DNA from: Deltaproteobacteria bacterium GWA2_38_16
Lineage (GTDB): Bacteria > Bdellovibrionota > JACOXK01 > 2-02-FULL-40-11
Direction of reading: 5' to 3'
Assembly: GCA_001797335.1 (NCBI GenBank)
Contig: MGPE01000005.1
Coordinates: forward strand, 153,013-217,012
Length of the DNA stretch: 64,000 nt
The translations under genes and the position numbers were made by a program. This document shows, piece after piece, positions 33,218-54,953 of the stretch (the first letter of the stretch is position 1; every line of letters starts with the position of its first letter). The notes beneath the pieces are model-generated. The model saw nothing but the letters and a program-made list of their open reading frames with translations. It was not told the origin of the DNA and did no database searches.

Positions 33218-33317
33218 CCAAAGGTCACAAGCGTGTGACCATTCAAATCTGTAATAACCAGCTGGAAACGAAGTTTGTAGATATTTGGAAATTTAGTAAG
33301 TTAGGTATAAGTTTTTT

Positions 33318-33394
33318 GGGACCGTAGTTCAGCTGGTTAGAACGCCTGCCTGTCACGCAGGAGGTCGCGAGTTCGAGTCTCGTCGGTCCCGCCA
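33318..33394 (+). tRNA. tRNA-Asp (anticodon GTC)
   Basis: Acceptor GGGACCG/CGGTCCC, anticodon loop CTGTCAC, T-loop TTCGAGT, 3' CCA encoded. Confidence 0.85.
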
Positions 33395-33444: not shown

Positions 33445-33538
33445 CGTGGTCAGACTTGTATACTTCGAATGTAAATGAGGTTTCGACTTTTCTTTTTTAA
33501 TACGGCCCTACTCTACGCGCTTTTTGTTTACAGGGAAT

Positions 33539-33577
33539 ATGATTTGTGTCATATTTTCAGCACATGATTTATGTCAT
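33539..33577 (+). promoter_or_regulatory. two FNR/CRP-family-like palindromic boxes upstream of nirK
   Basis: ATGATTTGTGTCAT (33539..33552) and ATGATTTATGTCAT (33564..33577), each ATGA-N6-TCAT, 25 bp apart, 25-60 bp upstream of the nirK ATG. Confidence 0.4.
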
Positions 33578-33601
33578 TTTTCTGCCATCAAGGAGGAAAT
33601 A

Positions 33602-35008
33602 ATGAAAAAAATATTTTTGATCATTATCGGTATCGGATGTTTTGGAAATCTTTTATCGTGTAAGTCATCTTTGCCTATTGAAAAAGCTGTTCTAACTTTT
33701 GCTCCAGAAGTGCCGCCGGTGATTACGCGGACATCTCCAGCAAAAGTGATTGTTGATCTAGAGGTTCAAGAAGTGGTCAATCAACTGGCCGATGGTGTTG
33801 AATATACGTTTTGGACATTTGGGGGGAAAGTTCCTGGGAAATTTATTCGAGTTCGAGAAGGAGATATCGTAGAGTTTCATTTGGCCAACCATCCTGCCAA
33901 TAAGCTTCCTCATAATATTGATCTTCATGCAGTGACAGGGCCTGGTGGGGGCGCCACCAGTTCCTTTACAGCGCCTGGACATAAATCCCAATTTACATTT
34001 ACAGCGTTAAACGCGGGTCTCTATGTATATCACTGTGCCACGGCTCCTGTAGGGATGCATGTGGCTAATGGCATGTATGGGCTTATTTATGTGCAACCCA
34101 AAAAAGCGCTGCCTAAGGTGGATCGTGAATATTATGTTATGCAAGGAGATTTTTATACCAAGGGTGTTTTTAGTGAAAAAGGGCTTCAGCCCTTTTCCAT
34201 GGAAAAGGCTATCGATGAAAAACCAAGCTATGTGGTGTTTAATGGGGCGGTGAATTCATTGGTGGGGGATAATGCACTGAAAGCCAAAGTAGGAGAAACC
34301 ATTCGTTTATTTGTGGGAAATGGGGGGCCGAATTTGGTTTCGTCATTTCATGTTATTGGAGAAATTTTTGATAAAGTGTATCAAGAAGGAGGGACTTCCA
34401 CTGTTCAGGAAAATGTTCAAACTACTTTAGTTCCCGCTGGAGGATCAGCCATTGTTGAATTTAGGATGGATGTTCCTGGAACTTTTATTTTAGTTGATCA
34501 CAGTATCTTTAGAGCATTTAATAAAGGAGCTTTGGGAATGCTTAAAGCGGAAGGGCCAGAAAATAAAGTCATTTATTCTGGAAAAGAGGTGGATGAAAAT
34601 TATATTGAGAGCCAAGCACATCCCCAAGCAGGGTTAAAATCAGAACCGTCCCCTTTAAAAGCCGGGCGGAGTGGGGCTACTATTTTTGAAAATGTATGCG
34701 CCATGTGTCATCAACAAGAAGGACAAGGCCTTTCTGGCGTATTTCCTCCTTTGGCAAAATCAGACTATCTTTCTCATTTAGCCGTTAGAGATCGAGAGAA
34801 ATTAGTATCTATTATTCTAAAAGGGTTATCGGGAAAAATTACCGTGAATGGAAAAGAGTATAATAATGTGATGACGCCTGTTTCAGGACTTTCTGATGAA
34901 GAATTAGTAACCATCTTAAATTATATTATCAGTTCCTGGGGAAATTCTGGAAAACCATTTACTTTAGAGGAAGTGAAAAAAGCGAAAGAAAAAATTGAAT
35001 CGAGATGA
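33602..35008 (+). CDS. nirK: copper-containing nitrite reductase with C-terminal cytochrome c domain
   Basis: Cupredoxin ligand motifs (HNIDLHA; [16 protein letters not shown]); C-terminal heme motif CAMCH; likely start at ATG 33602 with AGGAGG RBS (ORF track starts 33524). Confidence 0.85.
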
Positions 35009-36150
35009 AAAAAAATATTTTCAGCCATTTTTTCTTGGCTGCTATTTTCATAGAGGGGGGAACATTTACCCCCTTCTATGGTTTGAATAAAGATCAAAAA
35101 AGTGTATCCGTAAAATCTTTTCGTATAGATGATGCTCCTGTAACCAAGCAGCAATTTTTTAATCATGTCTCTAAGCGGGGGAATGTGCCGGTAACCTATG
35201 TGTCGTGGGATGATGCACAAGCGTATTGCAAGGCTCGGGGAGGCAGACTCCCCACTGTTTTTGAGTGGGAATATGTAGGCAGTGCCAGTGAGACTCAAAA
35301 AGATGCTTCGAAGGATCCAAAATTTATTCAAAAACTTTTAGAGTGGTATTCAAAGCCCGTTGATGAAGCTAAAATTCCAGAGGTTAAGCAGGGAAAACCC
35401 AATGTTTGGGGAGTGTACGACATGCATGGAGTGGTGTGGGAATGGGTCTATGATTTTAATAGTAGCTTTGTCACCGGAGATAATCGTCAGGATAAAGATA
35501 AACTCAAAGATTTGTTTTGTGGAGCAGGAGGAGAAGGTGCTCAAGACCGAATTAATTACGCAGCCTTTATGCGATATGCATTGAGAAGTAGTTTAAAAGC
35601 ATCTTATAAACTTATGAATCTAGGATTTCGGTGTGCTTATGATGAAAAAAATCAGGACGAGAATATTCAAACGTCTCTTGATTTATCTCCCTATCGCTCT
35701 CATTTTGTGGTGATCACGATGACGTATACGAGCTGCCAATCGGCTTGTCCTTTGATTATAAAAAAATTAAAAACCATTTTAAAAGCATTAGGGGGAGATA
35801 TCCAAAATATTGAATTTGTGGTGGTGACGTTTGATCCAACTATTGACACAGCTTCTCATCTTTTAGAATACCAAAAAAAACAAGGTCTTGATTTTCAAAA
35901 TTGGCATTTTTTAAGCGGTTCCGAAGAAGAAACCCGAAAGATGTCTTTATTTTTAGATATTTCTTATCAAAAAGATGCTACGACGGGGCACTTTATGCAC
36001 AGCAATAAAATTATTCTTTTAAATCCTGAGGGTCAAAAGGTAGTAACCCTAGATGGTTTGGATTCTGATATTGAGCCACTTTTAAAAGCCATGGGTAAAA
36101 CACCCAAAGCTTCTTTTTTCAAAAAACTTAAAAATTATTTTACCTTTTAA
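35005..36150 (+). CDS. NirV-like FGE-sulfatase-domain protein fused to a Sco1/SenC copper chaperone domain
   Basis: N-terminal [38 protein letters not shown] (FGE/SUMF1-like); C-terminal [10 protein letters not shown] (Sco CxxxCP) and thioredoxin-like region; ATGA overlap with nirK. Confidence 0.7.
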
Positions 36151-36625
36151 ATTGTGTATTGCTCGGTTCGTCTACGCAGGAAGAACAGCAGGGCATGGAT
36201 TTTAAAAATTTAGTGGGGCCAAACTTAAGAGCGAGAAGCATATTTTTTACAAAGATCAAAATTCCTAAAAATTGTAAAAGCCCAAAAACAAAAAAAAGAA
36301 GGTTCCAAGGAAGAGAGGAATCATAAAAAATATTTTGTAAGAGCGGTACGGTGATCATTCCCATCATTCCAATATTAGCCAGCCATAAGTGAAGCCTTTG
36401 ATAATGATCGGGGACAAGAGGACTTGATGCAAAGCGGGGGATGACATGATACGCCAGACCAAAAATCATCATCGAAATCCACCCAATGGCCATCGTATGG
36501 GCATGGGGAAAATGAATGATTGTTTTCCAAGTAGGAAAAGAAGCCATTACTGTGCCCATAAGGGCACCTACCAATAAATAAAGAAGACTTGAAATGACAA
36601 ATAATCTAGAATAGGGAGACATCAT
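36140..36625 (-). CDS. hypothetical His-rich integral membrane protein
   Basis: About 4 predicted TM helices; conserved-looking His in HFPHAH and AYHVIPRF. Confidence 0.4.
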   Translation of the reverse strand: MMSPYSRLFVISSLLYLLVGALMGTVMASFPTWKTIIHFPHAHTMAIGWISMMIFGLAYHVIPRFASSPLVPDHYQRLHLWLANIGMMGMITVPLLQNIFYDSSLPWNLLFFVFGLLQFLGILIFVKNMLLALKFGPTKFLKSMPCCSSCVDEPSNTQFKR

Positions 36626-36661
36626 TAAGTTTTATTTTTAACATAGGGAGTCCATAAAAAC

Positions 36662-37402
36662 ATGATCAATGTCATATTTTTGCCAGTTTTTTTCTTTGTG
36701 GCTGCTCTTATTTACTCAATGGTAGGGCATGCAGGTGCTTCAGCCTATTTGGCCATCATGGCTCTTTTTGGAATATCAACAGAGGTAATGAAACCCGTAG
36801 CCTTGGTTTTAAATATTTTAGTGGCAGCGATTGCCAGTTTTAAATTTTATCGATCAGGGCATTTTTCATGGTCTTTATTTTGGCCTTTTGCATTGACCTC
36901 CATTCCTTTTTCTTTTTTAGGAGGATTTTTAATACTGTCTCCTCTATTTTATAAGCCCATCGTTGGGATTATTCTCTTATATGCGGCGTATCATCTCTTT
37001 TTCTTTTCTGCGCTCTCCGCTTCTTTAGAAATAGCCCAACCCTTACGACGGTGGTTACTATTGTTTTTGGGATCAGGCATTGGATTTTTGTCTGGGTTAA
37101 TTGGGGTAGGGGGAGGGATTTTTTTAAGTCCCCTTCTTTTATGGAGGAGGTGGGCTACGGTTCGGCAAACAGCAGCGATATCTTCTCTTTTTATTCTCGT
37201 GAATTCTATTTCCGGTTTAGGGGGGCATCTGTTTCGGGTGAATTCTTTGCCTTCTCAATTGCCGCTGTGGTTAGTGAGCGTTGCTCTGGGAGGATGGATA
37301 GGAGCAGAATATGGAAGCCGTCATCTGTCCCCCCTTTTTTTAAAGCGATGTTTGGCTTTGGTTTTATTAATAGCAGGACTTAAATGCCTCTTTTTTGTCT
37401 AA
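36662..37402 (+). CDS. TauE/SafE-family anion permease
   Basis: Duplicated 4-TM units with glycine-rich GLIGVGGGIFLSPLL motif. Confidence 0.7.
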   Translation: MINVIFLPVFFFVAALIYSMVGHAGASAYLAIMALFGISTEVMKPVALVLNILVAAIASFKFYRSGHFSWSLFWPFALTSIPFSFLGGFLILSPLFYKPIVGIILLYAAYHLFFFSALSASLEIAQPLRRWLLLFLGSGIGFLSGLIGVGGGIFLSPLLLWRRWATVRQTAAISSLFILVNSISGLGGHLFRVNSLPSQLPLWLVSVALGGWIGAEYGSRHLSPLFLKRCLALVLLIAGLKCLFFV

Positions 37403-37405
37403 ATC

Positions 37406-37417
37406 TGATCAGTATCA
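37406..37417 (+). promoter_or_regulatory. FNR-like box (TGAT-N4-ATCA) upstream of the molybdoenzyme alpha gene
   Basis: cTGATcagtATCAt directly after the TauE stop codon, about 65 bp upstream of the likely alpha-subunit start. Confidence 0.4.
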
Positions 37418-37435
37418 TTTTTATCTCTACCGAAA

Positions 37436-40400
37436 TTGTGTAAATCTGCCACTTTAAGGCTTAAAAAATATGGAGGAAATATGACATATATCAGCCGAAG
37501 AAAGTTTTTAAAAGGTTTGGGGGCAGTAGGGACGTTATTAACCTCAGAAACTGTCTTTGGATCTCCTCTTCGATATTTTAAGCCTACCCATGTAGAAAAT
37601 CCCTTAGCATTTTATCCCAACCGGGATTGGGAAAAAGTATATCGAAATATTTTTAAACCTGATTCCACGTTTGTATTTTTGTGTGCTCCCAATGATACCC
37701 ATAACTGTCTTTTAAAAGCGTATGTCAAAAATAATGTGGCGGTTCGAATAGGTCCTACTTATGGATATGGAAAAGCACAAGATCTCTATGGGAATCAATC
37801 GTCTCATCGGTGGGATCCCAGGCTCTGTCAAAAAGGATTGGGATTAGTACGTAGGGTCTATGGGGATCGTCGTTTAAAATCCTCAATGATTCGACAAGGA
37901 TTTAAACAATGGGTAGAGGCTGGATTTCCCAGAGATCCCAAAACTGGAAAGCCGGATTTAAAATATTTTAATCGGGGACGAGATAAGTGGCTCAGAATTT
38001 CTTGGGATGAAGCATTTCAATTATCTGCCAAAGCTTTTTATAATATTGCACAAACCTATTCAGGCAAAGAAGGAGAAAAACGTTTAAAACTTCAAGGTTA
38101 TGATTCTGCGATGATTGAAGCGTTAGAAGGAGCAGGAACACAAACAATTAAAATCAGAGGGGGAATGGCATTTTTAGGATCTACACGAATTTTTGGAATG
38201 TATCGATTTGCCAATATGCTTGCGCTTTTAGATAGCAAAATTCGAGGAGTTGGGCCAGATCACGCCGTAGGAGCCAGAGGGTGGGATAGTTATAGTTGGC
38301 ATACAGATCTTCCACCAGGGCATCCCATGGTGACGGGTACTCAAACCAATGATTTTGATTTATTTGCCGTAGAACATTCAAAGCTTGCTATTGCCTGGGG
38401 GATGAATTGGATTACGACAAAAATGCCAGATTCCCATTGGTTGACGGAAGCCAGGCTCAAGGGAACTAAAACCGTGTCCATCACGGTTGAATACAGTGCA
38501 ACGGCTTCTAAAACCGATGACGTGATTGTTATTCGTCCAGGAACAGATCCAGCCTTTGCATTGGGATTGGCCCAAGTGATTATATCTGAAAAACTCTATG
38601 ATTTGGAGTTTGTATCCAAAAATACGGATCTTCCTTTTCTTATTCGATTAGATACCTTGGAGCCTCTTCGTCCCCAAGATATTATTCCGGGATATGTAGA
38701 GCCTCCTTTAAAAAATATTGTCTTTCTTAAAAAAGGAGAAAAACCCCCGGCAACCTCTACCCATCGCATTCAATATGCCACGGAAGAAATGAAGGATTCT
38801 TTTAAACCGTTTGTGATTGTTGATCAAAAAACCAAAAAATTAACACCGGTGACGAGAGACTCGTTCAGATCGGCAGATTTGTTTTCCAGTCGAACGGTGA
38901 AACTTTTAAATGGGAAGGAAATAAAAGTACAAACCGTGTTTGGGTTAATGAGAGACTATGTAAATCAAAATTTTACGCCTAAACAAACCGAACTTATTAC
39001 TGGTGCTCCTGAAAAAGCAATTATCTTATTAGCCAAACAAATTGCGGCTAATCCAGAAAAAACACTTTTTGTGACGGGTATGGGTCCAAACCAATTTTTT
39101 AATTCTGATTTAAAAGATCGGGCCATCTTTTTTGTGGCAGCCTTAACGCGAAATATTGGATTTCCAGGGGGTAATGTAGGAAGTTATGCTGGAAATTATA
39201 GAGCAGCATTGATTGGGGGAGAGCCCGTATTTGCTGCCGAAGATCCCTTTCATGTGCAACTCGATCCCAAAGGTAAGGTCATTGTTAAAAAATATACGCA
39301 TTATGAATCACTTCATTACTTTAATTATGGTGAGAGGCCGCTTAGGGGAGGGAAAACATTATTTACAGGGAAAAGTCATCTTCCAACTCCTACCAAAGCC
39401 ATGTGGCTCAATAATTCTAACTCTGTCATCGGAAATATTAAGTGGCATTTTGATGTGGTGAATAACACGCTTCCAAAGCTAGAGTTTATTGCATTTGCAG
39501 ATTGGTGGTGGACGGGTTCTTGTGAGTATGCTGATATTGTTTTTGGCGTCGACAGTTGGGCGGAGTTTAAAGTGCCTGATATGTGTGCTTCCTGTACCAA
39601 TCCTTTCCTTCATGTTTATCCCAGAACTCCTCTTCCCAGAATTTTTGATACGAAATCTGATATCGAAGTGATTGCAGGAGTATCAAAAGCGTTAGCCGAA
39701 GTAACCAATGATGCTCGAATGGTTGACATGTGGAAATTTGTTCATGAAGGGAATGTGCAAACATATCTTCAACGGATTATGGATCACTCTTTTACGCTCA
39801 AAGGGTATGATATTGATGATCTAGAGAAAAAAGCCCAAGAAGGAATTCCAACGCTCATGAATAATCGAACCTATCCTAGAATCTCTTCTTTTGAGCAGGC
39901 CACAGAAAAAGAACTTTGGTTTACGAAATCAGGTCGATTGGAATTTTATCGTCCTGAAAAAGAATTTATTGAGCATGGTGAAAATATGGTGGTGTATAGA
40001 GAACCTGTTGATTCAACGCCCTATGAACCCAATGTCATTGTAGCACATCCTCATGTGGCCATTCGTCCTAAAGGGCCCGAAGCACATGGGATGCAGTCGA
40101 GTGATCTTTCGTGTGAAAGTCGCCAAGTGCGAAATGTGATCAAAACGCCAGAAGAAGTAGTCAAAACAGAGCATCCTCTGCGTTCCAAAAAATTTACTCA
40201 CATTTATCATACGCCCAAATATCGACATGGAGCACACACGACTCCTGTTGATACTGATTTTACGGGAGTATGGTTTGGCCCTTTTGGTGATATTTATCGG
40301 CACGACAAACGTCAAGCCTCCGTGACCGAAGGATATGTAGATATAAATCCTTTAGATGCCAAAGAACTGGGGATTGAAGATGGGGATTATGTGCATATAG

Positions 40401-40924
40401 ATGCTGATCCCCAAGATCGTCCTTATAGAGGATGGAAAAAAGGGACTGAGTCTTATCATGTGGGGAGACTCCTTCTCAGGGCTCGTTATTATCCAGGGAC
40501 TCCCAGGGGAGTAGCTCGGACTTGGCACAATATGTATGGAGCTACTTTTGGAAGTGTGAAAGCTCATGAAACCCGGCCCGATGGACTCGCTAAAAATCCA
40601 GAGACAAATTACCAATCCATGTATCGCTATGGCAGTCATCAAAGTGCCACCCGGGCATGGCTACGGCCAACACTTATGACAGAAACATTGGTGAGAAAAG
40701 AAATGTTTGGAAATCAAATGGGCAAAGGATTTGCTGCAGATATTCATTGTCCCGTCGGAGCGCCTCGGGAAGCGTTTGTTAAAATTTCTAAAGCTGAGAA
40801 CGGGGGATTGGGAGGAAAAGGAAAGTGGGGGCCGGCACAGCTTGGATTTCGTCCCACCTATGAAAATGTAGCGATGAAGGAATATCTTAAAGGAAAATTT
40901 ATGAAACGAAAGAAGGAGATGTAA
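37436..40924 (+). CDS. Tat-exported molybdopterin oxidoreductase alpha subunit, type II DMSO reductase family (nitrite oxidoreductase NxrA-like / periplasmic NarG-like)
   Basis: Twin-arginine signal SRRKFLKG (probable start at Met16, about 37481); FS0 motif C-x3-D-x3-C...C followed by YVKNN (cf. NarG H-x3-C-x3-C..YVKNG); about 1150 aa. Confidence 0.8.
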
Positions 40925-40927
40925 AGC

Positions 40928-42058
40928 ATGGCAACAGTAAAAAATTGGCAACTGGATCGCCAAATGGATTATCCCTATGAAGAGCACCGACCTAAAAAAC
41001 AATGGGCCATTGTTTTTGATTTAAATAAATGCATTGGATGTCAAACCTGTTCCTTGGCCTGTAAAACCACTTGGACCAGTGGCAAAGGCCAAGAATATAT
41101 GTTTTGGAATAATGTGGAAACAAAACCTTGGGGCAGCTATCCCCTGGCGTGGGATGTCCGAGTACTTGAAAAATTGGGATATCAACACTGGGATAAAAAT
41201 AAACCCTATTCCGGAAAAACCGTTTTTGAAGCTGCTGATCCAGCAGAAAAAGCGGTTCATTTTAATCCTCAAGATGAAGATTGGATGTATCCAAACCGAG
41301 GAGAAGATGATTGTACAGGAAATGTCTCGGGTGGAAAATATTTGACATTACCCCACGACAATTGGTTTTTTTATCTTCCCAGAACCTGTGCACATTGTAC
41401 CTATCCTGCCTGTTTAGCAGCCTGCCCCAGAAAAGCGATTTATAAACGAGAAGAAGATGGTATTGTTCTGATCGATCAATCACGATGCAAAGGATACCAA
41501 GAATGTGTCAGGGCCTGTCCCTATAAAAAGTCTATGTATAATCCCTATACCCGAGTGAGTGAAAAATGTGTGGGGTGTTATCCGGCGGTAGAAGAGGGAA
41601 AGCAACCCATGTGTGTTCAAAATTGCATTGGGAAAATTCGTATTATGGGATTTATTAATCCTCCCTGGAATGCCAGAGAAGATAATCCTGTTGATTATCT
41701 GGTTCACAAAAAAGAATTAGCACTCCCGTATTATCCTCAGTTGGGACTTGAGCCGAATATTTATTATGTTCCTCCCATTCATGCCAATCGGGAGTATTTA
41801 ATTCAGATGTTTGGCCCAAAAGTAGAGGAGGTCATTGAAAATTATAAAAAAATTAAAAATGATCCTATTACCCAGGGACTTTTAGTGCTGATGGGATCTA
41901 CGGATAATATTATTCATCGTTTTAAAGTTTCTGAGGGATCAGCATATGCTTTTGATGAAAAAGGGGATCAAATTGTGAGAGTTCCAGTCACAGAGCCTTT
42001 ATTTATTCGAACCCCTTGGGATGAAAAACTGGGCGTTATTCGAAATAATACGCCCTAA
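40928..42058 (+). CDS. iron-sulfur beta subunit of the type II DMSOR-family enzyme (NxrB/NarH-like)
   Basis: Four ferredoxin-type Cys clusters (CIGCQTCSLAC; CAHCTYPACLAACP; CKGYQECVRACP; CVGCY...C); no signal peptide; immediately follows the alpha gene. Confidence 0.8.
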   Translation: MATVKNWQLDRQMDYPYEEHRPKKQWAIVFDLNKCIGCQTCSLACKTTWTSGKGQEYMFWNNVETKPWGSYPLAWDVRVLEKLGYQHWDKNKPYSGKTVFEAADPAEKAVHFNPQDEDWMYPNRGEDDCTGNVSGGKYLTLPHDNWFFYLPRTCAHCTYPACLAACPRKAIYKREEDGIVLIDQSRCKGYQECVRACPYKKSMYNPYTRVSEKCVGCYPAVEEGKQPMCVQNCIGKIRIMGFINPPWNAREDNPVDYLVHKKELALPYYPQLGLEPNIYYVPPIHANREYLIQMFGPKVEEVIENYKKIKNDPITQGLLVLMGSTDNIIHRFKVSEGSAYAFDEKGDQIVRVPVTEPLFIRTPWDEKLGVIRNNTP

Positions 42059-42962
42059 GAAAGAAGGTGTGAGGGGAATGATGAAGAAAATTTATGCTTT
42101 AATGGTTGTAAGTTATCTTTTATGGGGCCAGGGACTTTGGGCCGAAGGACTTATTGCAAAATATGTTAAAGAGGATCTCTCTAAACTAAATCTTGAAGCA
42201 CTGTTTTGGAAAGAGGTTACTCCAGAGACCATTCAGCTGATAGCTCAGCCCATGGTGGCCCCACGTCCTCAAAAAACATTGACGGAAAAACTTTGGGTAC
42301 AAGTGGTTCATAATGGAGAGTGGATGGCGTTTCGATTTAAATGGAAAGACAAAGAGAAGAGCGAAGCAGGACCTTTGGGTAAATTTTCGGATGCAGTGGC
42401 CATTCAATTTCCAGTGAAAGAAAAAGAAGTGCCCCCGATTTTTATGGGAGCCAAGGATAGCCCCGTTCATATTTTGCATTGGAGAGCACAGTATCAAAAA
42501 GACAAAGAAAAAGGATTCCAAACGATGAAAGATATTTATCCCAATATGAATATGGATATGTATCCTTTAGAATTTGCCAATCAATATTCTCATGATGAGA
42601 TGTTGAAAAAAATCACTGAGGAACAAAGAGAAGTGTTTGTGTCTGGAAAATCTGCTGGAAACCCTCAATCATTTCAAAAAATAAAAGGGGTGGATGAGAT
42701 GATGGCCGAAGGTTTTGGTTCCAGTTCTGTCATTGAAAATACGAGAGCAGAAGCTCAGGGGATATGGCAAAAAAAAGGAAAAGAAGGAGAATGGGTAGTG
42801 CAAATTTCTCGGCCCTTAGCTTTAGAAGGGGGATCTATCTTGAAAGCAGGGCAAAAAAGTTTTATGGCCTTTGCTGTGTGGCAGGGCGGAGAAGGGGAAG
42901 TGGGATGTCGAAAATCTGTGACGATGACCTGGGTACCCTTAATAATTGAGGATAAAAAATGA
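42021..42962 (+). CDS. periplasmic gamma subunit (heme b, EbdC/NxrC-like)
   Basis: Sec signal MMKKIYALMVVSYLLWGQGLWAEG (probable start at internal Met about 42078); position and size fit a gamma subunit. Confidence 0.6.
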   Translation: MKNWALFEIIRPKKEGVRGMMKKIYALMVVSYLLWGQGLWAEGLIAKYVKEDLSKLNLEALFWKEVTPETIQLIAQPMVAPRPQKTLTEKLWVQVVHNGEWMAFRFKWKDKEKSEAGPLGKFSDAVAIQFPVKEKEVPPIFMGAKDSPVHILHWRAQYQKDKEKGFQTMKDIYPNMNMDMYPLEFANQYSHDEMLKKITEEQREVFVSGKSAGNPQSFQKIKGVDEMMAEGFGSSSVIENTRAEAQGIWQKKGKEGEWVVQISRPLALEGGSILKAGQKSFMAFAVWQGGEGEVGCRKSVTMTWVPLIIEDKK

Positions 42963-43624
42963 TGCCTAAACCTACGGATTTTATCGTTGCTTCTTTTTTG
43001 ACCGCATATCCAGATAACTATTTTTGCGATAGCTTAAAGGACATCTTAAATTGTCAAAAACCCAAAGGTATTGATTCTTTCTATTTGGAGCTGAAATCTT
43101 ATATAGAAACACCTCAAAAACTAAATAATTTGCGTTCTGATTATATTGATATTTTTGATCATGGAAAAGAAATCAACTCTCCGTATGAAACGTCTTATGG
43201 GCCTTATAAGGGGATGAATAAGACCATCGATCTTTCAGATTTGATGGGATTTTACAAAGCGTTTGGATTTGAATTGGGAGTGGATGATAAAAGGCGAGAT
43301 ATGGCAGATCATGTTTCTGTTGAGCTTGAATTTTATGCGCTGTTGCTCATGAAAGAAGCCTATTTGAAAAAACACAATGATAAAGAAGGAACTGAAATTG
43401 TTTTAGATGCGTGTAAGAAATTTTTAAAAGATCATTTAGGAAGATTTATTTCAGCTATTGGCAATAGGCCCGCTGTTTTACAACATTCTTTTTATTCGAA
43501 AGTATTTGAGTGGAGTGCTGTTCTTGTTGCCGAAGAATGCAAAAGATTAAATGTTACGCCTACGCCTTTGTCTTACGATTCTCTGATATCCGAATCTGAA
43601 GATTTTAACTGTCGTTTTAAATAA
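42959..43624 (+). CDS. TorD/NarJ-family redox enzyme maturation chaperone
   Basis: 221-aa cytoplasmic protein, fourth gene of the operon; DHVSVELEFYALL resembles TorD/NarJ-family helices. Confidence 0.55.
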   Translation: MMPKPTDFIVASFLTAYPDNYFCDSLKDILNCQKPKGIDSFYLELKSYIETPQKLNNLRSDYIDIFDHGKEINSPYETSYGPYKGMNKTIDLSDLMGFYKAFGFELGVDDKRRDMADHVSVELEFYALLLMKEAYLKKHNDKEGTEIVLDACKKFLKDHLGRFISAIGNRPAVLQHSFYSKVFEWSAVLVAEECKRLNVTPTPLSYDSLISESEDFNCRFK

Positions 43625-49269: not shown

Positions 49270-49275
49270 AGTGTT

Positions 49276-49611: not shown

Positions 49612-51165
49612 ATGAGCCATCATATAACATTAGCTATTTTAGTGGGGGGGGCTTCTCGTCGAATGGGGACTTCTCAAGACAAAGGGCTTTTATCTGTCCA
49701 TGGGGAGGCTTTAGTTTATCGTCTCATTAGAAAACTTTCTTTTTTATTTCAAGAAATCTTAATTATTTGTTCTTCGGAAACTCAAAAACAAAAATATGAT
49801 TTCGTGCTCGGAATGACACCTCAGATTATTGTGGATGAAAGTGGGAGTGATCGAGCGGCGTATTATGGACTGTGTGCAGCGCTTAAACAGAGTTCCACAG
49901 AAAAAGTGTTGGTGATTCCGGTAGATGCTCAAGGGGTGGATCCAGGTGTTATTAAAAAACTTCTATTGTCTCCCTCATTTCCTGTTGCCTATGAAAATAC
50001 ACCTTTCCCATCGGTGTGGCTCAAACAACATTTATCTTTTGTCATTCCGAGCACGAAGTGCGAGGAATCCCTAAGTATTTTAGATCTTTTGAAAAAACTT
50101 TCTACGACCTGGATACGTCCCACAGAGTGTGAAGACATACTTTTAAAAATGAATTTAAATACGAGAGAAGATGTTCGAAACTATTTTGGAGAGCCTCTGT
50201 GCGATTCTTGGGGGAGACAATTAAATTACTTAAGACTTTCTCTAACTGAATCGTGCAACATGGCATGCCAATATTGCTTGCCCAAAGGTTTTCATCAATC
50301 AACCCATGAACAGATGCTGACTCAAACCGCCCAGGTTATTTTAAAAGCGTTTCGAAAGTTAGGGTTTGAAAAAGTGCGTTTTACTGGCGGTGAGCCTACG
50401 CTTCATCCGGGACTTTTGTATCTTATTTCGGATGCTCGGTCCTTGGGATACGAAACTATTTCTCTCACTACCAATGGAAGTTTTATTCAAGATCTTACGT
50501 CTTTAATAGAGGCTGGGCTTACCCATATCAATATCAGTTTAGATACCCTAGATCCTACGACATTTCAAAAACTTACAGGGAGTCATTATCTATCTAAAAT
50601 TTTGGGTCTTATTGATGAGGCCTTAGAGAAGGGATTAAATGTAAAATTGAATACGGTTCTTCTTCGGGAGATTAATTTAAATCACATAGAACCATTACTC
50701 CATTGGGCGAAAGATCGCCCCTTAACCCTTCGGTTTATTGAACTTATGCCAATTCAAAATCACACAGAGTTTTTTAACAGAAATTTTGTTTCAAATACCG
50801 AAATTCAGTCTTTGGTTCGATCGTTGGGGTATGCGCCTATCTGTCATCCCCGACTTGATCGGGGATCCATGGAACCTTTAGGCCCCGCGGTTTTGTGGTC
50901 TCATCCAGAGTTTTTGGCCAAAGTAGGTTTTATCAGTCCTTGGTCGTGTAATTTCTGTGATCGCTGCAATCGATTGCGGGTGACTGCCAGAGCACATCTT
51001 CGTTTATGTTTATTTGGAAAAGAAGAGATAAAACTTCCGGCAGAACAAGGAGATGAAGTGGTGAGTCAATTTATTCGATCGGTTCTTCATCAAAAGCCCC
51101 TCTCGCATGATTTAGAAAAAGGGGATAGAGGAAGTTTAAGTTATTTTAAAGTAGTGGGAGGATAA
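49612..51165 (+). CDS. moaA: fused MobA-like molybdenum cofactor guanylyltransferase / MoaA GTP 3',8-cyclase (radical SAM)
   Basis: N-terminal AILVGGASRRMGTSQDKGLL (MobA motif); C-terminal CNMACQYC (CxxxCxxC) and auxiliary cluster cysteines CNFCDRCNR...C. Confidence 0.8.
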   Translation: MSHHITLAILVGGASRRMGTSQDKGLLSVHGEALVYRLIRKLSFLFQEILIICSSETQKQKYDFVLGMTPQIIVDESGSDRAAYYGLCAALKQSSTEKVLVIPVDAQGVDPGVIKKLLLSPSFPVAYENTPFPSVWLKQHLSFVIPSTKCEESLSILDLLKKLSTTWIRPTECEDILLKMNLNTREDVRNYFGEPLCDSWGRQLNYLRLSLTESCNMACQYCLPKGFHQSTHEQMLTQTAQVILKAFRKLGFEKVRFTGGEPTLHPGLLYLISDARSLGYETISLTTNGSFIQDLTSLIEAGLTHINISLDTLDPTTFQKLTGSHYLSKILGLIDEALEKGLNVKLNTVLLREINLNHIEPLLHWAKDRPLTLRFIELMPIQNHTEFFNRNFVSNTEIQSLVRSLGYAPICHPRLDRGSMEPLGPAVLWSHPEFLAKVGFISPWSCNFCDRCNRLRVTARAHLRLCLFGKEEIKLPAEQGDEVVSQFIRSVLHQKPLSHDLEKGDRGSLSYFKVVGG

Positions 51166-51168
51166 AAA

Positions 51169-51633
51169 ATGGGAGATTTTACTCATTTAAAAAAGGGAAA
51201 AGCCGTGATGGTGGATGTGACACAAAAAACTCCATCTGAGAGGATTGCAAAAAGTAAAGCTCATGTACAAACAGGATCTATCAATCTTAAAAAAGAATTA
51301 TCTCAAAAAGCACAGCAAGAATTGGCCTTAACTATTCGACTTTCGGCGATTCAAGCGGCTAAAAAAACATCTGAACTTATTCCTCTATGTCATCCTTTGT
51401 CTTTAAGTTTTGTAGAGTGTGAGGTGGAATTTAAGGAAAATAAAATTTTAATAATCTGTACGGCTAAAACAAAAAATACAACGGGGGTTGAAATGGAAGC
51501 TATGGTGGGAGCCTCGATCGGAGCATTAACGGCCTATGACATGATTAAGTCCAAGTGTCGTGATACATCGATTGAAAAAATTGAGTTAGTCTATAAAGAA
51601 GGAGGAAAATCAGGCGTATGGAAAAGAACATAA
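51169..51633 (+). CDS. moaC: cyclic pyranopterin monophosphate synthase
   Basis: 154 aa; conserved MoaC core (GVEMEAMVGASIGALTAYDM). Confidence 0.85.
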   Translation: MGDFTHLKKGKAVMVDVTQKTPSERIAKSKAHVQTGSINLKKELSQKAQQELALTIRLSAIQAAKKTSELIPLCHPLSLSFVECEVEFKENKILIICTAKTKNTTGVEMEAMVGASIGALTAYDMIKSKCRDTSIEKIELVYKEGGKSGVWKRT

Positions 51634-52118
51634 CATCCTATGTTATTGTGAGTTCTGATCGAGCATCCCAGGGAACCTATGAAGATAAGGCAGGCCCTGC
51701 TGCCCAAAATTGGCTGTGTAGCAATGGGTATAAAAATAAAGGAGTTGTCATTATCCCTGATAATCCAAAAATTCTTCGAGATAAACTTTTGGAGATATTA
51801 GAGACGGTAGACGTTGTGGTGGTGAGCGGAGGAACGGGTTTAGGCCCTCGGGATATTACTCCTCAAACATTACGTGATCTCTCAGACTATGAAATTCCAG
51901 GATTTGGAGAAAGATTAAGACAAGAAAGTTTAAAATATTCTTTGAATAGTTATTTATCCCGGTGTGGAGGGTATGTGAAAAATGATAAACTTATTTTAGC
52001 CCTGCCAGGAAATCCAAAAGCGGTGACAGAGCAACTTGATATTCTTTCAGAACTTCTTCCCAATGCGGTGTGTGCGCTTCGAGGGGAATGTAAACATAGG
52101 AATCGAACATCCTCATGA
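51618..52118 (+). CDS. mog: molybdopterin adenylyltransferase (MogA/MoaB family)
   Basis: VVVVSGGTGLGPRDITPQ motif. Confidence 0.8.
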   Translation: MEKNITSYVIVSSDRASQGTYEDKAGPAAQNWLCSNGYKNKGVVIIPDNPKILRDKLLEILETVDVVVVSGGTGLGPRDITPQTLRDLSDYEIPGFGERLRQESLKYSLNSYLSRCGGYVKNDKLILALPGNPKAVTEQLDILSELLPNAVCALRGECKHRNRTSS

Positions 52119-54485: not shown

Positions 54486-54938
54486 ATGACGCCTGAAGTG
54501 TTAGCCCCAACCTTTAAATTTAGCCATCCTATTCGTGTCCGGCAAGGCGAGACTGATGCGCAGGGACGTGTATTGTGTCCCATGTTTTGTGTCTATCGGG
54601 AGGCAGCTCGGACAGAGTATTTTAGGAACTTGAAGTTTTCCTATCCTGAGCAGTGGAAGAGTAATTTTCACCATGTCATGACGATAGGCTCTTGCCATAA
54701 TGAAAAACGGCAAGCCCATTTTGATGATGAGCTTTTAATTTTTGCTAAAATTTCTGCCATTCAAAAAACGAATTTTACTTTTTCATTTGAGATCTATCAA
54801 AAAGCAGGAGGGCAGCTTATTTCTAAGGCCACCTCGACCCATGCGGTCATTGATCCTAAAAAATGGGCTATTATCCGGGTGCCTGACTTTTTTAGAGAGA
54901 TTGTAAGTCAATTTGAAAATCAAAAATTTATGATTTGA
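54486..54938 (+). CDS. hotdog-fold acyl-CoA thioesterase (YbgC/4HBT-like)
   Basis: 150 aa; VRQGETDAQGRV pattern typical of 4HBT thioesterases. Confidence 0.55.
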   Translation: MTPEVLAPTFKFSHPIRVRQGETDAQGRVLCPMFCVYREAARTEYFRNLKFSYPEQWKSNFHHVMTIGSCHNEKRQAHFDDELLIFAKISAIQKTNFTFSFEIYQKAGGQLISKATSTHAVIDPKKWAIIRVPDFFREIVSQFENQKFMI

Positions 54939-54953
54939 ATCATAATCCGAAGT

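What the first reader, a model, noticed from the sequence alone, without database searches (positions are those of the whole stretch)
33524..43624. Compact nitrogen-oxide redox locus: nirK(cyt c) - nirV::sco - His-rich membrane protein - TauE permease - Tat-exported type II DMSOR-family enzyme (alpha-beta-gamma-chaperone)
Immediately downstream of tRNA-Asp, a copper nitrite reductase, a copper-delivery module, an anion permease and a four-gene periplasmic molybdoenzyme operon sit together. Gene order alpha-beta-gamma-delta, the Tat signal on alpha and a Sec signal on gamma match periplasmic nitrite oxidoreductase / chlorate-type enzymes, not cytoplasmic NarGHJI. Substrate (nitrite oxidation, nitrate or (per)chlorate reduction) cannot be decided from sequence alone. 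Pairing a TauE-family permease with NirK and an Nxr-like enzyme is not a combination I know as characterised.
Basis: partly seen in the sequence, partly recalled or inferred. Interest (0 to 1): 0.75.

Follow-up and report, generated by a model that had tools for sequence, protein, structure and literature searches.

The report
Oxygen-regulated periplasmic nitrate/nitrite enzyme locus
An uncultured aquifer bacterium carries, under one likely oxygen-sensing switch, a copper nitrite reductase next to a periplasmic molybdenum enzyme from a known but largely untested family that can interconvert nitrate and nitrite; the genes are real and correctly read, but the family is already known from hundreds of genomes.

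Summary
All eight genes exist as described, with minor start-codon corrections. The molybdoenzyme is neither cytoplasmic NarGHJI nor a (per)chlorate, selenate or ethylbenzene-type enzyme. Its alpha subunit matches Kuenenia NxrA end to end (918 bits, against 168 for PcrA and 138 for NarG). My trees exclude it from the core Nitrospira/Nitrospina/anammox NXR clade (99-100% bootstrap). They place it on the Nitrotoga/Hydrogenobacter side, which holds one nitrite oxidiser and periplasmic nitrate reductases. It belongs to a large clade (relatives in more than 575 species genomes: Bdellovibrionota, Myxococcota, Sericytochromatia and others) already noted in the literature as "periplasmic NxrA/NarG", direction unknown. 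New here: the locus extends to 55.7 kb (a full Moco gene set plus an FNR-like regulator). A TGAT-N4-RTCAT box marks the nirK, tauE, alpha, Moco and fnr promoters (10 matches against 1.5 expected). The same type of box is enriched upstream of the operon family-wide (p=7e-18). TauE's conserved partner is the Moco/MoeB module, not NirK. The "His-rich" protein is a four-helix mini-homolog of NorB/CcoN. Best reading (about 0.6): low-oxygen-induced nitrate to nitrite to NO. New member of a known kind; moderate interest.

The parts
33318..33394 (+). tRNA-Asp (GTC) bordering the locus; its first 19 nt plus upstream T-run are duplicated at 33193-33217
   Evidence: ARAGORN; Rfam; direct repeat
33540..33577 (.). 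Two FNR-type boxes (TGATTTGTGTCAT, TGATTTATGTCAT), 25 bp apart, within 65 bp upstream of the nirK start codon
33602..35008 (+). nirK: three-domain copper nitrite reductase with a C-terminal cytochrome c domain; lipoprotein signal (LLSC); SSFHV clade II motif
   Evidence: TIGR02376 354 bits; 631 bits end to end to Ralstonia pickettii RpNiR 3ziy
35005..36150 (+). nirV::sco in-frame fusion: residues 11-213 FGE-sulfatase/NirV domain, 13-residue linker, residues 227-381 SCO1/SenC copper chaperone domain with CQSAC motif
   Evidence: Pfam; comparison with the separate NirV and SCO genes of L081 (62% and 61% identity); same fused ORF in L084 and L087
36140..36625 (-). 161 aa four-helix membrane protein, a mini-homolog of the NorB/CcoN catalytic subunit; invariant H41-x-H43, H60, N84; C-terminal CC-x2-C
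36662..37402 (+). TauE/SafE (TSUP) family anion permease; an FNR-type box overlaps its start (36663-36675)
   Evidence: PF01925 115 bits; context analysis
37406..37418 (.). FNR-type box TGATCAGTATCAT in the tauE-alpha intergenic region, 63 bp upstream of the alpha ATG
37481..40924 (+). Alpha subunit (1147 aa): Tat signal SRRKFLK; FS0 ligands C68/D72/C76/C116; substrate Asn71; Mo ligand Asp276; Nitrotoga/Hydrogenobacter-side periplasmic NxrA/NarG
   Evidence: residue roles from PMC8387239
40928..42058 (+). Beta subunit, four Cys groups (at residues 35, 154, 187, 214) for Fe-S clusters; no signal peptide (hitch-hiker export inferred)
   Evidence: 381 bits to Kuenenia NxrB against 230 PcrB, 212 EbdB and 182 NarH
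42078..42962 (+). Gamma subunit, EB_dh-type haem b protein with a Sec signal and no TM helix; Met and Lys aligned with the haem ligands of EbdC and KsNXR-C
   Evidence: PF09459 101 bits
42959..43624 (+). Delta: NarJ/TorD-type cytoplasmic assembly chaperone
   Evidence: PF02613 57.6 bits, TIGR03482 64.6 bits
48877..49542 (-). moaE (48877-49269) and moaD (49276-49542, ends ...PPVAGG)
   Evidence: PF02391
49555..49567 (.). FNR-type box in the divergent moaD / mobA-moaA promoter region
49612..54414 (+). Moco biosynthesis operon: mobA-moaA fusion (49612-51165), moaC (51169-51633), moaB/mog (51618-52118), moeA (52115-53302), moeB with rhodanese domain (53290-54414)
54930..54943 (.). Palindromic FNR-type box TGATTTGAATCAT just upstream of the regulator gene (probable autoregulation)
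54975..55652 (+). Crp/Fnr-family regulator, FNR-like: Cys9, Cys12, Cys21 and Cys111 correspond to E. coli FNR Cys20, 23, 29 and 122
   Evidence: Pfam; NCBIfam best hits Fnr 91 bits and FnrL 84 bits, below their cut-offs

Best explanation
This is a low-oxygen-induced, two-step periplasmic nitrogen-oxide respiration locus in an uncultured aquifer bacterium. NCBI labels the organism 'Deltaproteobacteria bacterium'; its nearest relatives are Bdellovibrionota MAGs. SHOWN: alpha (Mo-bisPGD, FS0 with 3Cys/1Asp) is made in the cytoplasm. It is presumably loaded with cofactor with help from the delta chaperone and the adjacent complete Moco gene set, and exported by Tat, with beta inferred to hitch-hike. 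The haem b gamma subunit is exported by Sec. None of the subunits has a membrane anchor, so the enzyme is a soluble periplasmic alpha-beta-gamma complex like that proposed for Ca. Nitrotoga. INFERRED: in this organism it runs mainly in the reductive direction, nitrate to nitrite, taking electrons from periplasmic c-type cytochromes (quinol to bc1 or ACIII to cytochrome c to haem b to Fe-S chain to Mo). The nitrite is then reduced to NO in the same compartment by the lipid-anchored, cytochrome c-fused NirK. The NirV::SCO fusion probably supports NirK's copper centres. An FNR-like [4Fe-4S]-type oxygen sensor encoded at the end of the locus probably switches on nirK, tauE, the alpha operon, the Moco genes and itself through TGAT-N4-RTCAT boxes. 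TauE belongs to the molybdenum-cofactor module. Its most plausible roles are export of sulfite released by the rhodanese-type sulfur transfer of MoeB, or transport of another oxyanion. The small NorB-like membrane protein is an unassigned NirK companion.
For: Enzyme identity: alpha scores 918 bits full length to Kuenenia NxrA, against 168 PcrA, 138 NarG and 112 EbdA. Beta scores 381 bits to NxrB. The gamma haem ligands are aligned. FS0 C-x2-N-D-x3-C, C116 and the Asp276 Mo ligand are conserved (roles from PMC8387239). Clade: excluded from the core Nitrospira/Nitrospina/Kuenenia clade (100% and 99% bootstrap). It groups with Nitrotoga (100% on 289 columns). It is 59% identical to a real Nitrotoga N-terminal fragment, against 43% for Kuenenia. 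That clade contains the biochemically characterised periplasmic nitrate reductase of Hydrogenobacter thermophilus and putative NARs of known nitrate reducers (PMC6050957, PMC7325909). Regulation: the TGAT-N4-RTCAT box gives 10 matches against 1.49 expected, and 0 of 100 shuffles reach 10; 7 sites (8 of the 10 matches, since the crp palindrome is counted on both strands) lie at the nirK, tauE, alpha, moaD/moaA and fnr promoters or start codons. In 65 independent relatives, 38 of 98 boxes lie in the 7.6% of sequence within 1.5 kb upstream of alpha, p=7e-18. The regulator has the four-Cys FNR pattern and its best hits are Fnr and FnrL. Coupling to NirK: nirK lies within 10 kb of the operon in 4 of 80 relatives, and in the two where it adjoins the operon (L070 divergent, L029 convergent) the arrangement differs from the window's co-directional one, which suggests repeated independent juxtaposition. 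No carbon-fixation or terminal-oxidase genes were seen in the 64 kb window or in the short flanks recovered beyond each end, about 4 kb and 10 kb.
Against: The direction of catalysis cannot be read from sequence. Kuenenia NXR does both reactions in vitro (PMC8387239), and the same clade contains a true nitrite oxidiser, Nitrotoga. No NO reductase, nitrous oxide reductase, separate cytochrome c or bc1 genes are in the window, so the electron path and the fate of NO are unverified. The box motif was defined from the nirK promoter of this window, so the within-window enrichment is partly circular; two of the counted sites overlap start codons, and the canonical FNR consensus TTGAT-N4-ATCAA was not enriched. 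FNR boxes also precede the operon in L073 and L075, whose physiology is unknown. The Nitrotoga and Hydrogenobaculum references in my trees came from OCR text of a published alignment and covered the N-terminal third only, by neighbour joining; on the shorter region the Nitrotoga-side grouping had only 40% support. The regulator scores below the curated Fnr cut-off, and its N-terminal Cys spacing differs (C-x2-C-x8-C).
Confidence: 0.6

Rival explanations
1. The enzyme works in vivo as a nitrite oxidoreductase, as in Ca. Nitrotoga. Nitrite is oxidised to nitrate in the periplasm and the electrons pass via cytochrome c to a terminal oxidase. This would give a heterotrophic or mixotrophic Bdellovibrionota-like bacterium supplementary energy or nitrite detoxification. 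NirK would be an unrelated accessory, as in most nitrite oxidisers.
For: The operon architecture is the same as Nitrotoga nxrABCD: a Tat alpha of about 1150-1170 aa, beta, a Sec-exported soluble EB_dh-type gamma, and a chaperone (10.1101/317552). Alpha groups with Nitrotoga in the tree. Kitzinger et al. explicitly suggest that uncharacterised members of this clade may be novel nitrite oxidisers (PMC6050957). Nearly all known nitrite oxidisers also carry nirK (10.1101/317552). The high-potential Met/Lys haem b ligands are conserved.
Against: An FNR-type oxygen-labile regulator and its boxes control the locus, pointing to expression when oxygen, the required acceptor, is scarce. No oxidase or carbon-fixation genes are nearby. 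The clade is spread over hundreds of genomes from predatory or heterotrophic lineages. Characterised non-Nitrotoga members are nitrate reducers (PMC6050957).
Confidence: 0.2
2. The NXR-like enzyme and the cytochrome c-fused NirK are electronically coupled. Electrons from nitrite oxidation to nitrate are passed to NirK to reduce further nitrite to NO (a nitrite dismutation, as proposed for anammox NXR feeding nitrite reduction), giving an oxygen-independent NO-generating module.
For: Chicano et al. state that electrons from anammox NXR are used for nitrite reduction to NO (PMC8387239). The two enzymes share a compartment and a putative regulon. Both end in a haem domain suited to protein-to-protein electron transfer. 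No separate cytochrome c gene is in the locus.
Against: From general knowledge of the couples, the reaction is slightly uphill under standard conditions: nitrate/nitrite about +0.43 V against nitrite/NO about +0.35 V. There is no evidence of an NO sink in the locus. nirK adjacency is found in only a small minority of relatives (4 of 80), so the enzyme family does not depend on NirK.
Confidence: 0.07
3. The molybdoenzyme reduces a different oxyanion, such as (per)chlorate or selenate, or oxidises a non-nitrogen substrate, and its position next to nirK is coincidental.
For: [quoted passage not shown] All curated TIGR models are hit well below their cut-offs, so no curated equivalog claims it.
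Against: PcrA scores 168 bits and EbdA 112 bits, against 918 for NxrA. The substrate-coordinating Asn, which is Ile in EbdA, is conserved (PMC8387239). No chlorite dismutase was found in the window. Kuenenia NXR was assayed with selenate, DMSO, thiosulfate, tetrathionate and chlorate as alternative substrates (PMC8387239, methods only; I did not read the outcome).
Confidence: 0.05
4. It is an ordinary cytoplasmic respiratory nitrate reductase NarGHJI.
For: NarG and NarH models are hit weakly (156 and 183 bits), and some sources label homologs 'nitrate reductase alpha subunit'.
Against: Alpha has a Tat signal. There is no NarI; an EB_dh-type exported haem b subunit takes its place. TIGR01580 scores 156 bits against a cut-off of 1084. 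FS0 uses Cys/Asp rather than His/Cys. Only a 130-residue stretch aligns to E. coli NarG.
Confidence: 0.01

Closest known systems
Candidatus Nitrotoga fabula / Nitrotoga spp. NxrABCD (periplasmic nitrite oxidoreductase)
   Same: Same four-gene order alpha-beta-gamma-chaperone. Alpha is Tat-exported and of similar length (1147 against 1169 aa), with the C-x3-D-x3-C FS0 motif. Gamma is an EB_dh-type protein with a Sec signal and no TM helix. Beta lacks the insertion seen in the Nitrospira/Kuenenia type. Alpha groups with Nitrotoga NxrA in the 289-column tree and is 59% identical over the in-frame N-terminal fragment (PMC6050957; 10.1101/317552).
   Different: The host is not a known autotrophic nitrite oxidiser. 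The Mo-site pattern is Y-4x-D-11x-QT (Nitrotoga QM). Gamma is shorter (about 294 against 371 aa). The locus is linked to nirK, Moco genes and an FNR-like regulator. The Nitrotoga operon is duplicated and flanked by transposases and an NBP35-like gene.
Hydrogenobacter thermophilus / Hydrogenobaculum periplasmic NarGH (pNAR)
   Same: Periplasmic, Tat-dependent enzyme of the same sister clade. About 53% identity over the N-terminal 300 residues despite OCR noise, with shared signature stretches ([35 protein letters not shown]). Functionally a nitrate reductase (PMC6050957, PMC7325909), which is the direction I infer here.
   Different: The Hydrogenobacter enzyme is reported as membrane-bound; here no membrane anchor is encoded in the operon.
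Kuenenia stuttgartiensis NXR-ABC (PDB 7B04)
   Same: The only solved structure of the superclade. Alpha aligns end to end (918 bits). The FS0 ligands, substrate Asn, Mo-ligand Asp and gamma haem Met/Lys ligands are all conserved.
   Different: A different subclade (about 47% identity over the N-terminal 300 residues; 99-100% bootstrap separation). No NXR-T tubule subunit, no 15-gene anammox cluster, and the beta insertions are absent.
Ralstonia pickettii RpNiR (PDB 3ZIY), three-domain cytochrome c-fused NirK
   Same: End-to-end match (631 bits, residues 28-462 against 18-456) with the same cupredoxin-cupredoxin-cytochrome c architecture.
   Different: The window's protein has a lipoprotein signal, and it is followed by a NirV::SCO fusion.
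NirV (FGE-sulfatase family gene downstream of nirK) and SCO1/SenC copper chaperones
   Same: Domain content and position directly after nirK. In the relatives L081-L083 they are two separate adjacent genes.
   Different: Here they are fused into one polypeptide. SCO has lost its own signal anchor, and the NirV part carries an internal deletion of about 30 residues relative to L081.
E. coli FNR / FnrL oxygen sensors and their TTGAT-N4-ATCAA sites
   Same: cNMP-binding plus HTH_Crp_2 architecture, a four-cysteine pattern at equivalent positions, and a palindromic TGAT-N4-ATCA core in target promoters.
   Different: Scores are below the curated cut-offs. The N-terminal Cys spacing is C-x2-C-x8-C. 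The flanking bases of the box differ (aTGAT...RTCAt), and the strict E. coli consensus is not enriched.
NorB (cNOR) / CcoN (cbb3 oxidase) catalytic subunits
   Different: It has only four helices of twelve and lacks the helices that carry the CuB/FeB ligands, so it cannot form a binuclear centre alone. It has a C-terminal CC-x2-C tail. Only about 31 sequence clusters are known, all unannotated.

Membership tests
Type II DMSO reductase family enzyme (alpha-beta-gamma plus chaperone) | Tat signal on the catalytic subunit | tested here: met
   SRRKFLK at residues 5-11 of alpha; the Pfam TAT_signal hit is weak
Type II DMSO reductase family enzyme (alpha-beta-gamma plus chaperone) | Aspartate ligand to Mo, and an N-terminal FS0 [4Fe-4S] motif | tested here: met
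   Asp276 aligns with KsNXR-A Asp275; C68/D72/C76/C116 align with C67/D71/C75/C115 (PMC8387239)
Type II DMSO reductase family enzyme (alpha-beta-gamma plus chaperone) | Beta with four Cys groups; an EB_dh-type haem b gamma with Met/Lys ligation; a NarJ/TorD-type delta | tested here: met
   Four Cys groups; PF09459 101 bits, with Met and Lys aligned to EbdC and KsNXR-C; PF02613 and TIGR03482
Type II DMSO reductase family enzyme (alpha-beta-gamma plus chaperone) | Scores above the curated NCBIfam cut-offs (TIGR03479/78/77/82) | tested here: not met
   270.7 against 984.75; 266.8 against 480.7; 143.2 against 169.85; 64.6 against 152.3. These models centre on the Ser/Clr/Ddh/Ebd-like enzymes, and Nitrotoga NxrA hits TIGR03479 at a similar E-value (10.1101/317552).
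Core periplasmic NXR of Nitrospira/Nitrospina/anammox | Phylogenetic placement of alpha inside that clade | tested here: not met
   That clade is recovered at 100% and 99% bootstrap without the window sequence. Identity to Kuenenia is about 47% over the N-terminal 300 residues, whereas about 60% is reported within the clade (PMC8387239).
Core periplasmic NXR of Nitrospira/Nitrospina/anammox | Beta-subunit insertion in the Fe-S group IV region | tested here: not met
   Window CYPAVEEGKQPMCVQNC against Kuenenia CYPRIEGRDSLTDGRPMETRCMSAC
Nitrotoga/Hydrogenobacter-type periplasmic NxrA/NarG sister clade | Phylogenetic placement of alpha with Nitrotoga NxrA and Hydrogenobaculum NarG | tested here: inconclusive
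   100% bootstrap with Nitrotoga on 289 columns but only 40% on 174 columns with real fragments. Identity favours this side (59% against 43%). The references were partly OCR-derived, the method was neighbour joining, and only the N-terminal region was used.
Nitrotoga/Hydrogenobacter-type periplasmic NxrA/NarG sister clade | Catalytic direction (nitrite oxidation or nitrate reduction) | not testable with these tools
   This needs enzyme assays or physiology. The clade contains both phenotypes (PMC6050957).
Cytoplasmic respiratory nitrate reductase NarGHJI | No export signal, a NarI membrane dihaem subunit, His-ligated FS0, and TIGR01580 above its cut-off | tested here: not met
   A Tat signal is present, there is no NarI, FS0 is Cys/Asp-ligated, and the score is 156 against 1084 bits
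(Per)chlorate reductase Pcr/Clr systems | Alpha closest to PcrA/ClrA, with chlorite dismutase nearby | tested here: not met
   PcrA 168 bits against NxrA 918 bits; no Chlor_dismutase hit in any scanned ORF of the window
Copper nitrite reductase NirK, three-domain cytochrome c-fused class | Equivalog score above the cut-off, copper-ligand motifs, and a C-terminal cytochrome c domain with CxxCH | tested here: met
   TIGR02376 354 against 296 bits. [26 protein letters not shown] and CAMCH are visible in the sequence and aligned to 3ziy.
SCO1/SenC copper chaperone | Thioredoxin-like domain with CxxxC and a conserved His | tested here: met
   PF02630 68 bits against 22.8; CQSAC and GHFMHS are present
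TauE/SafE (TSUP) permease | Pfam PF01925 above the gathering score; a multi-TM protein of about 250 aa | tested here: met
   115 bits against 32.6, covering positions 4-236 of 237; multiple hydrophobic segments. The substrate was not testable.
FNR oxygen-sensing regulators | Four cluster-binding cysteines (three N-terminal and one central) plus a Crp-type HTH | tested here: inconclusive
   Cys9, 12, 21 and 111 match E. coli Cys20, 23, 29 and 122 at offset 11, with a 3-residue insertion. The best NCBIfam hit, Fnr, scores 91 bits against a cut-off of 228. Cluster binding was not testable.

The most novel reading that the evidence does not exclude
The enzyme runs oxidatively in vivo, which would make this Bdellovibrionota-like, apparently heterotrophic lineage (and by extension hundreds of Myxococcota, Sericytochromatia and Oligoflexia genomes with the same operon) a large unrecognised guild of non-autotrophic nitrite oxidisers. 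Electrons would go either to a high-affinity oxidase under microoxia or directly to the cytochrome c-fused NirK (nitrite dismutation to nitrate plus NO).
Probability: 0.15. Interest if true: 0.8.

Novelty: new member of a known kind. Interest (0 to 1): 0.4.

Why it matters
Nitrate in nature is made only by nitrite oxidoreductases, and metagenomic surveys use nxrA to count nitrite oxidisers. A very large clade of NXR-like operons sits in non-nitrifier genomes (relatives in more than 575 species genomes here; 581-665 sequences per subclade in PMC12823411), and its catalytic direction is unknown. If these enzymes are FNR-controlled periplasmic nitrate reductases, as the regulatory evidence here suggests, then nxrA-based surveys overcount nitrite oxidisers. 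Predatory or heterotrophic Bdellovibrionota, Myxococcota and non-photosynthetic Cyanobacteria relatives would gain an unappreciated, transporter-independent route into denitrification. The conserved FNR-type box upstream of the operon is a simple, testable handle on that question. The accessory genes are uncharacterised and can each be tested experimentally: the mini NorB-like membrane protein, the NirV::SCO fusion, the moeB-tauE pair, and two unknown conserved upstream genes in the relatives.

Tried and rejected
(1) The canonical FNR consensus TTGAT-N4-ATCAA with one mismatch was not enriched (10 matches against 7.1 expected). I then used the motif actually seen twice at the nirK promoter. 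That makes the within-window statistic partly circular, so I tested a slightly more general form on 65 independent loci.
(2) Box matches at 15584 and 53915 are not at promoters and are treated as chance. The matches overlapping the tauE and alpha start codons may reflect coding sequence; the alpha one recurs in L001.
(3) The full NxrA alignment in the Chicano et al. supplement is held only as OCR text with duplicated or corrupted rows from about residue 270 onward. I used only the first ~270 residues and cross-checked them against real fragments.
(4) My last homology search, with the Nitrotoga fragment, returned only fragment-length proteins, so I obtained no authentic full-length Nitrotoga or Hydrogenobacter sequence.
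(5) The representative search and cluster look-up gave Gaiellaceae, SAR202, Tectomicrobia, Halorussus, Thermincola and Ammonifex names but no canonical nitrite oxidisers.
(6) Rfam found no Moco riboswitch or other structured RNA, only the two tRNAs.
(7) There is no compositional island: GC is 0.38-0.43 across the locus against about 0.38 in the flanks.
(8) Extending beyond the window on the source contigs showed only housekeeping genes. No nor, nos, nap, oxidase, bc1 or carbon-fixation genes were seen, so genome-level physiology stays open.
(9) The generic sigma-70 promoter scan matched chance (34 against 32.9); terminator-like sites were slightly above it (18 against 12.2, sd 2.7). Neither was used.
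(10) I considered TauE as a nitrite/nitrate channel partnered with NirK and rejected it as the leading idea. Both enzymes are periplasmic, and in all 12 non-window loci where I found TauE it sits with the Nxr-like operon or with Moco genes: directly after moeB in eight, after moaA in two, and just downstream of the operon in two.

Full report
OBSERVATION. Profile searches confirm each assignment:
- NirK scores 354 bits on TIGR02376 (cut-off 296) and has a C-terminal cytochrome c domain.
- One ORF combines an FGE-sulfatase (NirV-type) domain with a SCO1/SenC domain.
- A 161 aa membrane protein lies on the opposite strand.
- A TauE/SafE permease scores 115 bits (cut-off 32.6).
- A four-gene operon encodes a 1147 aa molybdopterin subunit, a four-cluster Fe-S subunit, an EB_dh-type haem b subunit and a NarJ/TorD-type chaperone.

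Start codons need small corrections. nirK starts at 33602, behind an AAGGAGG site. Alpha starts at 37481, which matches the identical database protein P0001. Gamma starts at about 42078. Alpha has a twin-arginine motif (SRRKFLK), gamma a Sec-type signal and NirK a lipobox. None of alpha, beta, gamma or delta has a hydrophobic segment long enough for a membrane anchor. The same arrangement occurs in at least four independent assemblies of the same organism, including GCA_003528305.1, which NCBI calls 'Deltaproteobacteria bacterium', so this is real genome structure.

WHAT THE MOLYBDOENZYME IS. Against all solved structures, alpha matches Kuenenia stuttgartiensis nitrite oxidoreductase NxrA end to end (918 bits, residues 19-1157 against 3-1145). 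Perchlorate reductase PcrA scores 168 bits, E. coli NarG 138 and ethylbenzene dehydrogenase 112. Beta gives 381 bits to NxrB, against 230 for PcrB, 212 for EbdB and 182 for NarH. Gamma aligns with EbdC and KsNXR-C, including the Met and Lys that ligate haem b (PMC8387239).

The residues that Chicano et al. identify in the Kuenenia structure are all conserved: FS0 ligands C67/D71/C75/C115, the substrate-coordinating N70 and the Mo ligand D275. In the window they are C68, D72, C76, C116, N71 and D276. Cytoplasmic NarGHJI andchlorate, selenate or ethylbenzene-type enzymes are therefore excluded, and no chlorite dismutase was found in the window.

WHICH CLADE. Two kinds of periplasmic NXR-like enzyme are recognised. 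One is the Nitrospira/Nitrospina/anammox clade. The other is a sister clade holding the Ca. Nitrotoga NXR together with periplasmic nitrate reductases of known nitrate reducers, among them the biochemically characterised Hydrogenobacter thermophilus enzyme (PMC6050957; PMC7325909 citing Kameya 2017).

I had no authentic full-length references, so I used three sources. These were the N-terminal ~270 residues of the published reference alignment (supplement of PMC8387239, OCR text), the true Kuenenia sequence from the PDB alignment, and real Nitrotoga-like fragments (P0432, P0450) and P0345 from the database.
- Over about 300 residues, the window's alpha is 52.7% identical to Nitrotoga, 52.6% to Hydrogenobaculum, 46.6% to Kuenenia and 42% to Nitrospira. 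The same data give 40% for Nitrotoga against Kuenenia, matching the published value.
- The in-frame part of the real Nitrotoga fragment is 59% identical to the window and 43% to Kuenenia.
- A bootstrapped neighbour-joining tree on 289 columns puts the window, all its Bdellovibrionota, Myxococcota, Sericytochromatia and Fibrobacteria relatives, a Gaiellaceae representative and Nitrotoga in one clade (100%), with Hydrogenobaculum as sister. Nitrospina, Nitrospira and Kuenenia form a separate clade, also at 100%.
- A second tree with the real fragments (174 columns) keeps the window's clade monophyletic (98%) and outside the core nitrifier/anammox clade (99%). It supports the Nitrotoga-side grouping only weakly (40%).
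- Beta lacks the insertion present in Kuenenia, as reported for Nitrotoga (PMC6050957).

Exclusion from the classical NXR clade is solid. Assignment to the Nitrotoga/Hydrogenobacter side is likely but needs a proper phylogeny.

HOW COMMON IT IS. The alpha subunit has more than 2900 homologs in the protein collection, and the top 120 clusters are 69% identical or more. In a one-genome-per-species collection, at least 575 stretches encode a relative. The 80 best are all MAGs: Bdellovibrionota in the broad sense, Myxococcota, Sericytochromatia, Fibrobacteria, Acidobacteriota and others.

The literature already notes such genes. One study found seven non-nitrifier MAGs with periplasmic Nxr in a reactor and states that whether they oxidise nitrite or reduce nitrate 'remains unknown' (PMC9306079). 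Another reports NXR-like genes in Planctomycetota and Verrucomicrobiota MAGs (10.1101/2020.05.19.103440). [quoted passage not shown] This is a new member of a known, uncharacterised kind.

WHAT IS CONSERVED AROUND IT. Across the 80 loci, alpha, beta, gamma and delta are essentially always together (80, 78, 73 and 72 loci). nirK lies within 10 kb in only 4 loci, NirV/SCO in 2, TauE in 10, and the 161 aa protein in none. Clustering of the flanking ORFs shows the usual neighbours:
- Molybdenum-cofactor genes: moaA in 31 loci, moeA in 20, mobA in 17, moaE in 16, moaC/B in 15 and moeB in 13.
- A Crp/Fnr regulator in 11 loci.
- A MOT1-type molybdate transporter in 9 loci.
- Two unknown genes just upstream of alpha, of about 265 aa and about 110 aa. 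Neither is present in the window.

The window has the same downstream module: moaE and moaD (48877-49542, minus strand), a mobA-moaA fusion, moaC, moaB, moeA, moeB-rhodanese (49612-54414) and an FNR-like regulator (54975-55652). The functional locus therefore spans roughly 33.5-55.7 kb, interrupted by about 5 kb of unrelated genes.

REGULATION. Two copies of a palindromic TGAT-N4-GTCAT motif lie within 65 bp of the nirK start. The pattern TGAT-N4-RTCAT occurs 10 times in the 64 kb window against 1.49 expected, and none of 100 shuffles reaches 10. Seven sites lie at promoters or start codons of the locus: nirK (two), tauE, the tauE-alpha spacer, the alpha start, the moaD/mobA-moaA divergent region and the regulator's own upstream region. 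The regulator's site is one palindrome counted on both strands, so these seven sites make up 8 of the 10 matches.

Because the motif was defined from this window, I tested it on independent sequence. In 65 related loci, 38 of 98 TGAT-N4-RTCA boxes fall in the 7.6% of sequence within 1.5 kb upstream of alpha (binomial p=7e-18; 30 of 65 loci). The unfused nirK of L081 has one in its promoter.

The regulator's best curated matches are Fnr and FnrL, below their cut-offs. It has Cys9, 12, 21 and 111, matching E. coli FNR Cys20, 23, 29 and 122 at a constant offset except for a 3-residue insertion. I infer one oxygen-responsive regulon covering nirK, tauE, the molybdoenzyme, its cofactor pathway and the regulator itself.

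THE ACCESSORY GENES.
- NirK matches the structurally characterised three-domain, cytochrome c-fused NirK of Ralstonia pickettii end to end (631 bits), which is a known class.
- The NirV::SCO ORF is a true in-frame fusion. Residues 11-213 correspond to the separate 244 aa NirV of relatives L081-L083 (62% identity, with an internal deletion of about 30 residues). Residues 227-381 correspond to residues 42-195 of their separate SCO (61%). SCO's own signal anchor has been replaced by a 13-residue linker, and the CxxxC motif is intact. The NCBI record has no gene call there, and one assembly splits it differently.
- TauE travels with the molybdoenzyme/Moco module in every non-window locus where I found it. 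It lies directly downstream of moeB on the same strand in L022, L024, L030, L035, L027 and L081-L083. It lies between moaA and fnr in L073 and L075, directly after delta in L057, and about 2.8 kb downstream of the alpha gene on the opposite strand in L020. A plausible but untested rationale is export of sulfite produced by rhodanese-type sulfur transfer, or transport of another oxyanion.

MECHANISM AND ITS RIVALS. What is shown: the enzyme is a soluble, periplasmic Mo/Fe-S/haem b complex of the NXR/pNAR superclade. It sits next to a periplasmic cytochrome c-fused NirK and shares a putative FNR-type regulon with it.

What is inferred (about 0.6): under low oxygen it reduces nitrate to nitrite with electrons from periplasmic cytochromes c, and NirK reduces the nitrite to NO. 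Four lines of evidence favour reduction:
- FNR-type control, both here and family-wide.
- Nitrate reducers within the sister clade.
- The heterotrophic or predatory lineages that carry the operon.
- nirK adjoining the operon in three different arrangements: co-directional in the window, divergent in L070 and convergent in L029.

Three things count against certainty. NXR enzymes are bidirectional in vitro (PMC8387239). Nitrotoga, in the same clade, is a nitrite oxidiser. And no nor, nos, bc1, oxidase or carbon-fixation genes were visible in the 64 kb window or in the roughly 4 kb and 10 kb recovered beyond its ends.

The rivals are in vivo nitrite oxidation (0.2), NXR-to-NirK nitrite dismutation (0.07), another oxyanion substrate (0.05) and cytoplasmic Nar (refuted).

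VERDICT. I rate it a new member of a known kind, with interest about 0.4. The residual novel reading, a large hidden guild of non-autotrophic nitrite oxidisers, has a probability of about 0.15.

Noticed in passing
window 33193-33217 and 33312-33336: A 25-nt direct repeat (96% identical): the first 19 nt of tRNA-Asp plus its upstream T-run are duplicated 119 bp upstream, in front of a sequence that is not a tRNA. It may be a scar of a rearrangement or integration at the tRNA that borders the locus.
   Followed up: partly
related loci, e.g. L022:2535-3326 and L022:3323-3646; L035:8081-8878 and 8875-9210: Two conserved genes with no Pfam family sit directly upstream of the alpha gene in many relatives but are absent from the window. 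One is a Cys-containing protein of about 265 aa with a conserved CDYWREAxDGLV motif (40 of 80 loci). The other is a protein of about 110 aa with a Tat-like RRxF signal (13 loci). They are probably unrecognised accessory or maturation factors of this enzyme clade.
   Followed up: partly
window 36140-36625 (minus strand); L081:8001-8471: The small NorB/CcoN-like four-helix membrane protein family (about 31 clusters, invariant HxH...H, C-terminal CCxxC) is conserved next to nirK-nirV-sco and appears to be undescribed.
   Followed up: yes
L085 (GCA_003528305.1) 10486-11618; L086 10126-11271: The NCBI record has no gene call where the nirV::sco fusion lies, and one ENA assembly splits it into a 242 aa SCO gene and a 78 aa FGE fragment. 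This is either strain variation, a frameshift, or a pseudogene call that hides the fusion from annotation.
   Followed up: partly
window 49612-51165: MobA (MPT guanylyltransferase) and MoaA (GTP 3',8-cyclase) are fused into one 517 aa protein. These are the last and first steps of bis-MGD cofactor synthesis in a single polypeptide.
   Followed up: no
window 43573-46246 (minus strand); L070 at about -9.9 and -8.3 kb from alpha: A GMC-family FAD oxidoreductase and a tocopherol-cyclase-like protein lie next to the operon in the window. Homologs (30% and 27% identity) also lie near the operon in the Bacteriovoracaceae locus L070, so this may be lineage synteny or a functional link.
   Followed up: no
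window 46771-47746: A nucleotidyltransferase (Polbeta/NTP_transf_2) gene is followed by a HEPN-domain gene. This looks like a typical MNT/HEPN toxin-antitoxin pair inserted between the enzyme operon and the Moco genes.
   Followed up: no
window 2393-10664 (minus strand): Complex I genes (a nuoCD fusion, nuoE, nuoF, nuoG and a ferredoxin-like subunit) are directly followed by the alpha and beta subunits of a 2-oxoacid:ferredoxin oxidoreductase, an unusual adjacency that could link ferredoxin-dependent oxidation to the respiratory chain.
   Followed up: no
L011:10027-11166 and 8 other related loci: A MOT1-type molybdate transporter is part of the Moco module downstream of the operon in nine relatives. 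The window has none, while it has TauE directly upstream of alpha.
   Followed up: partly
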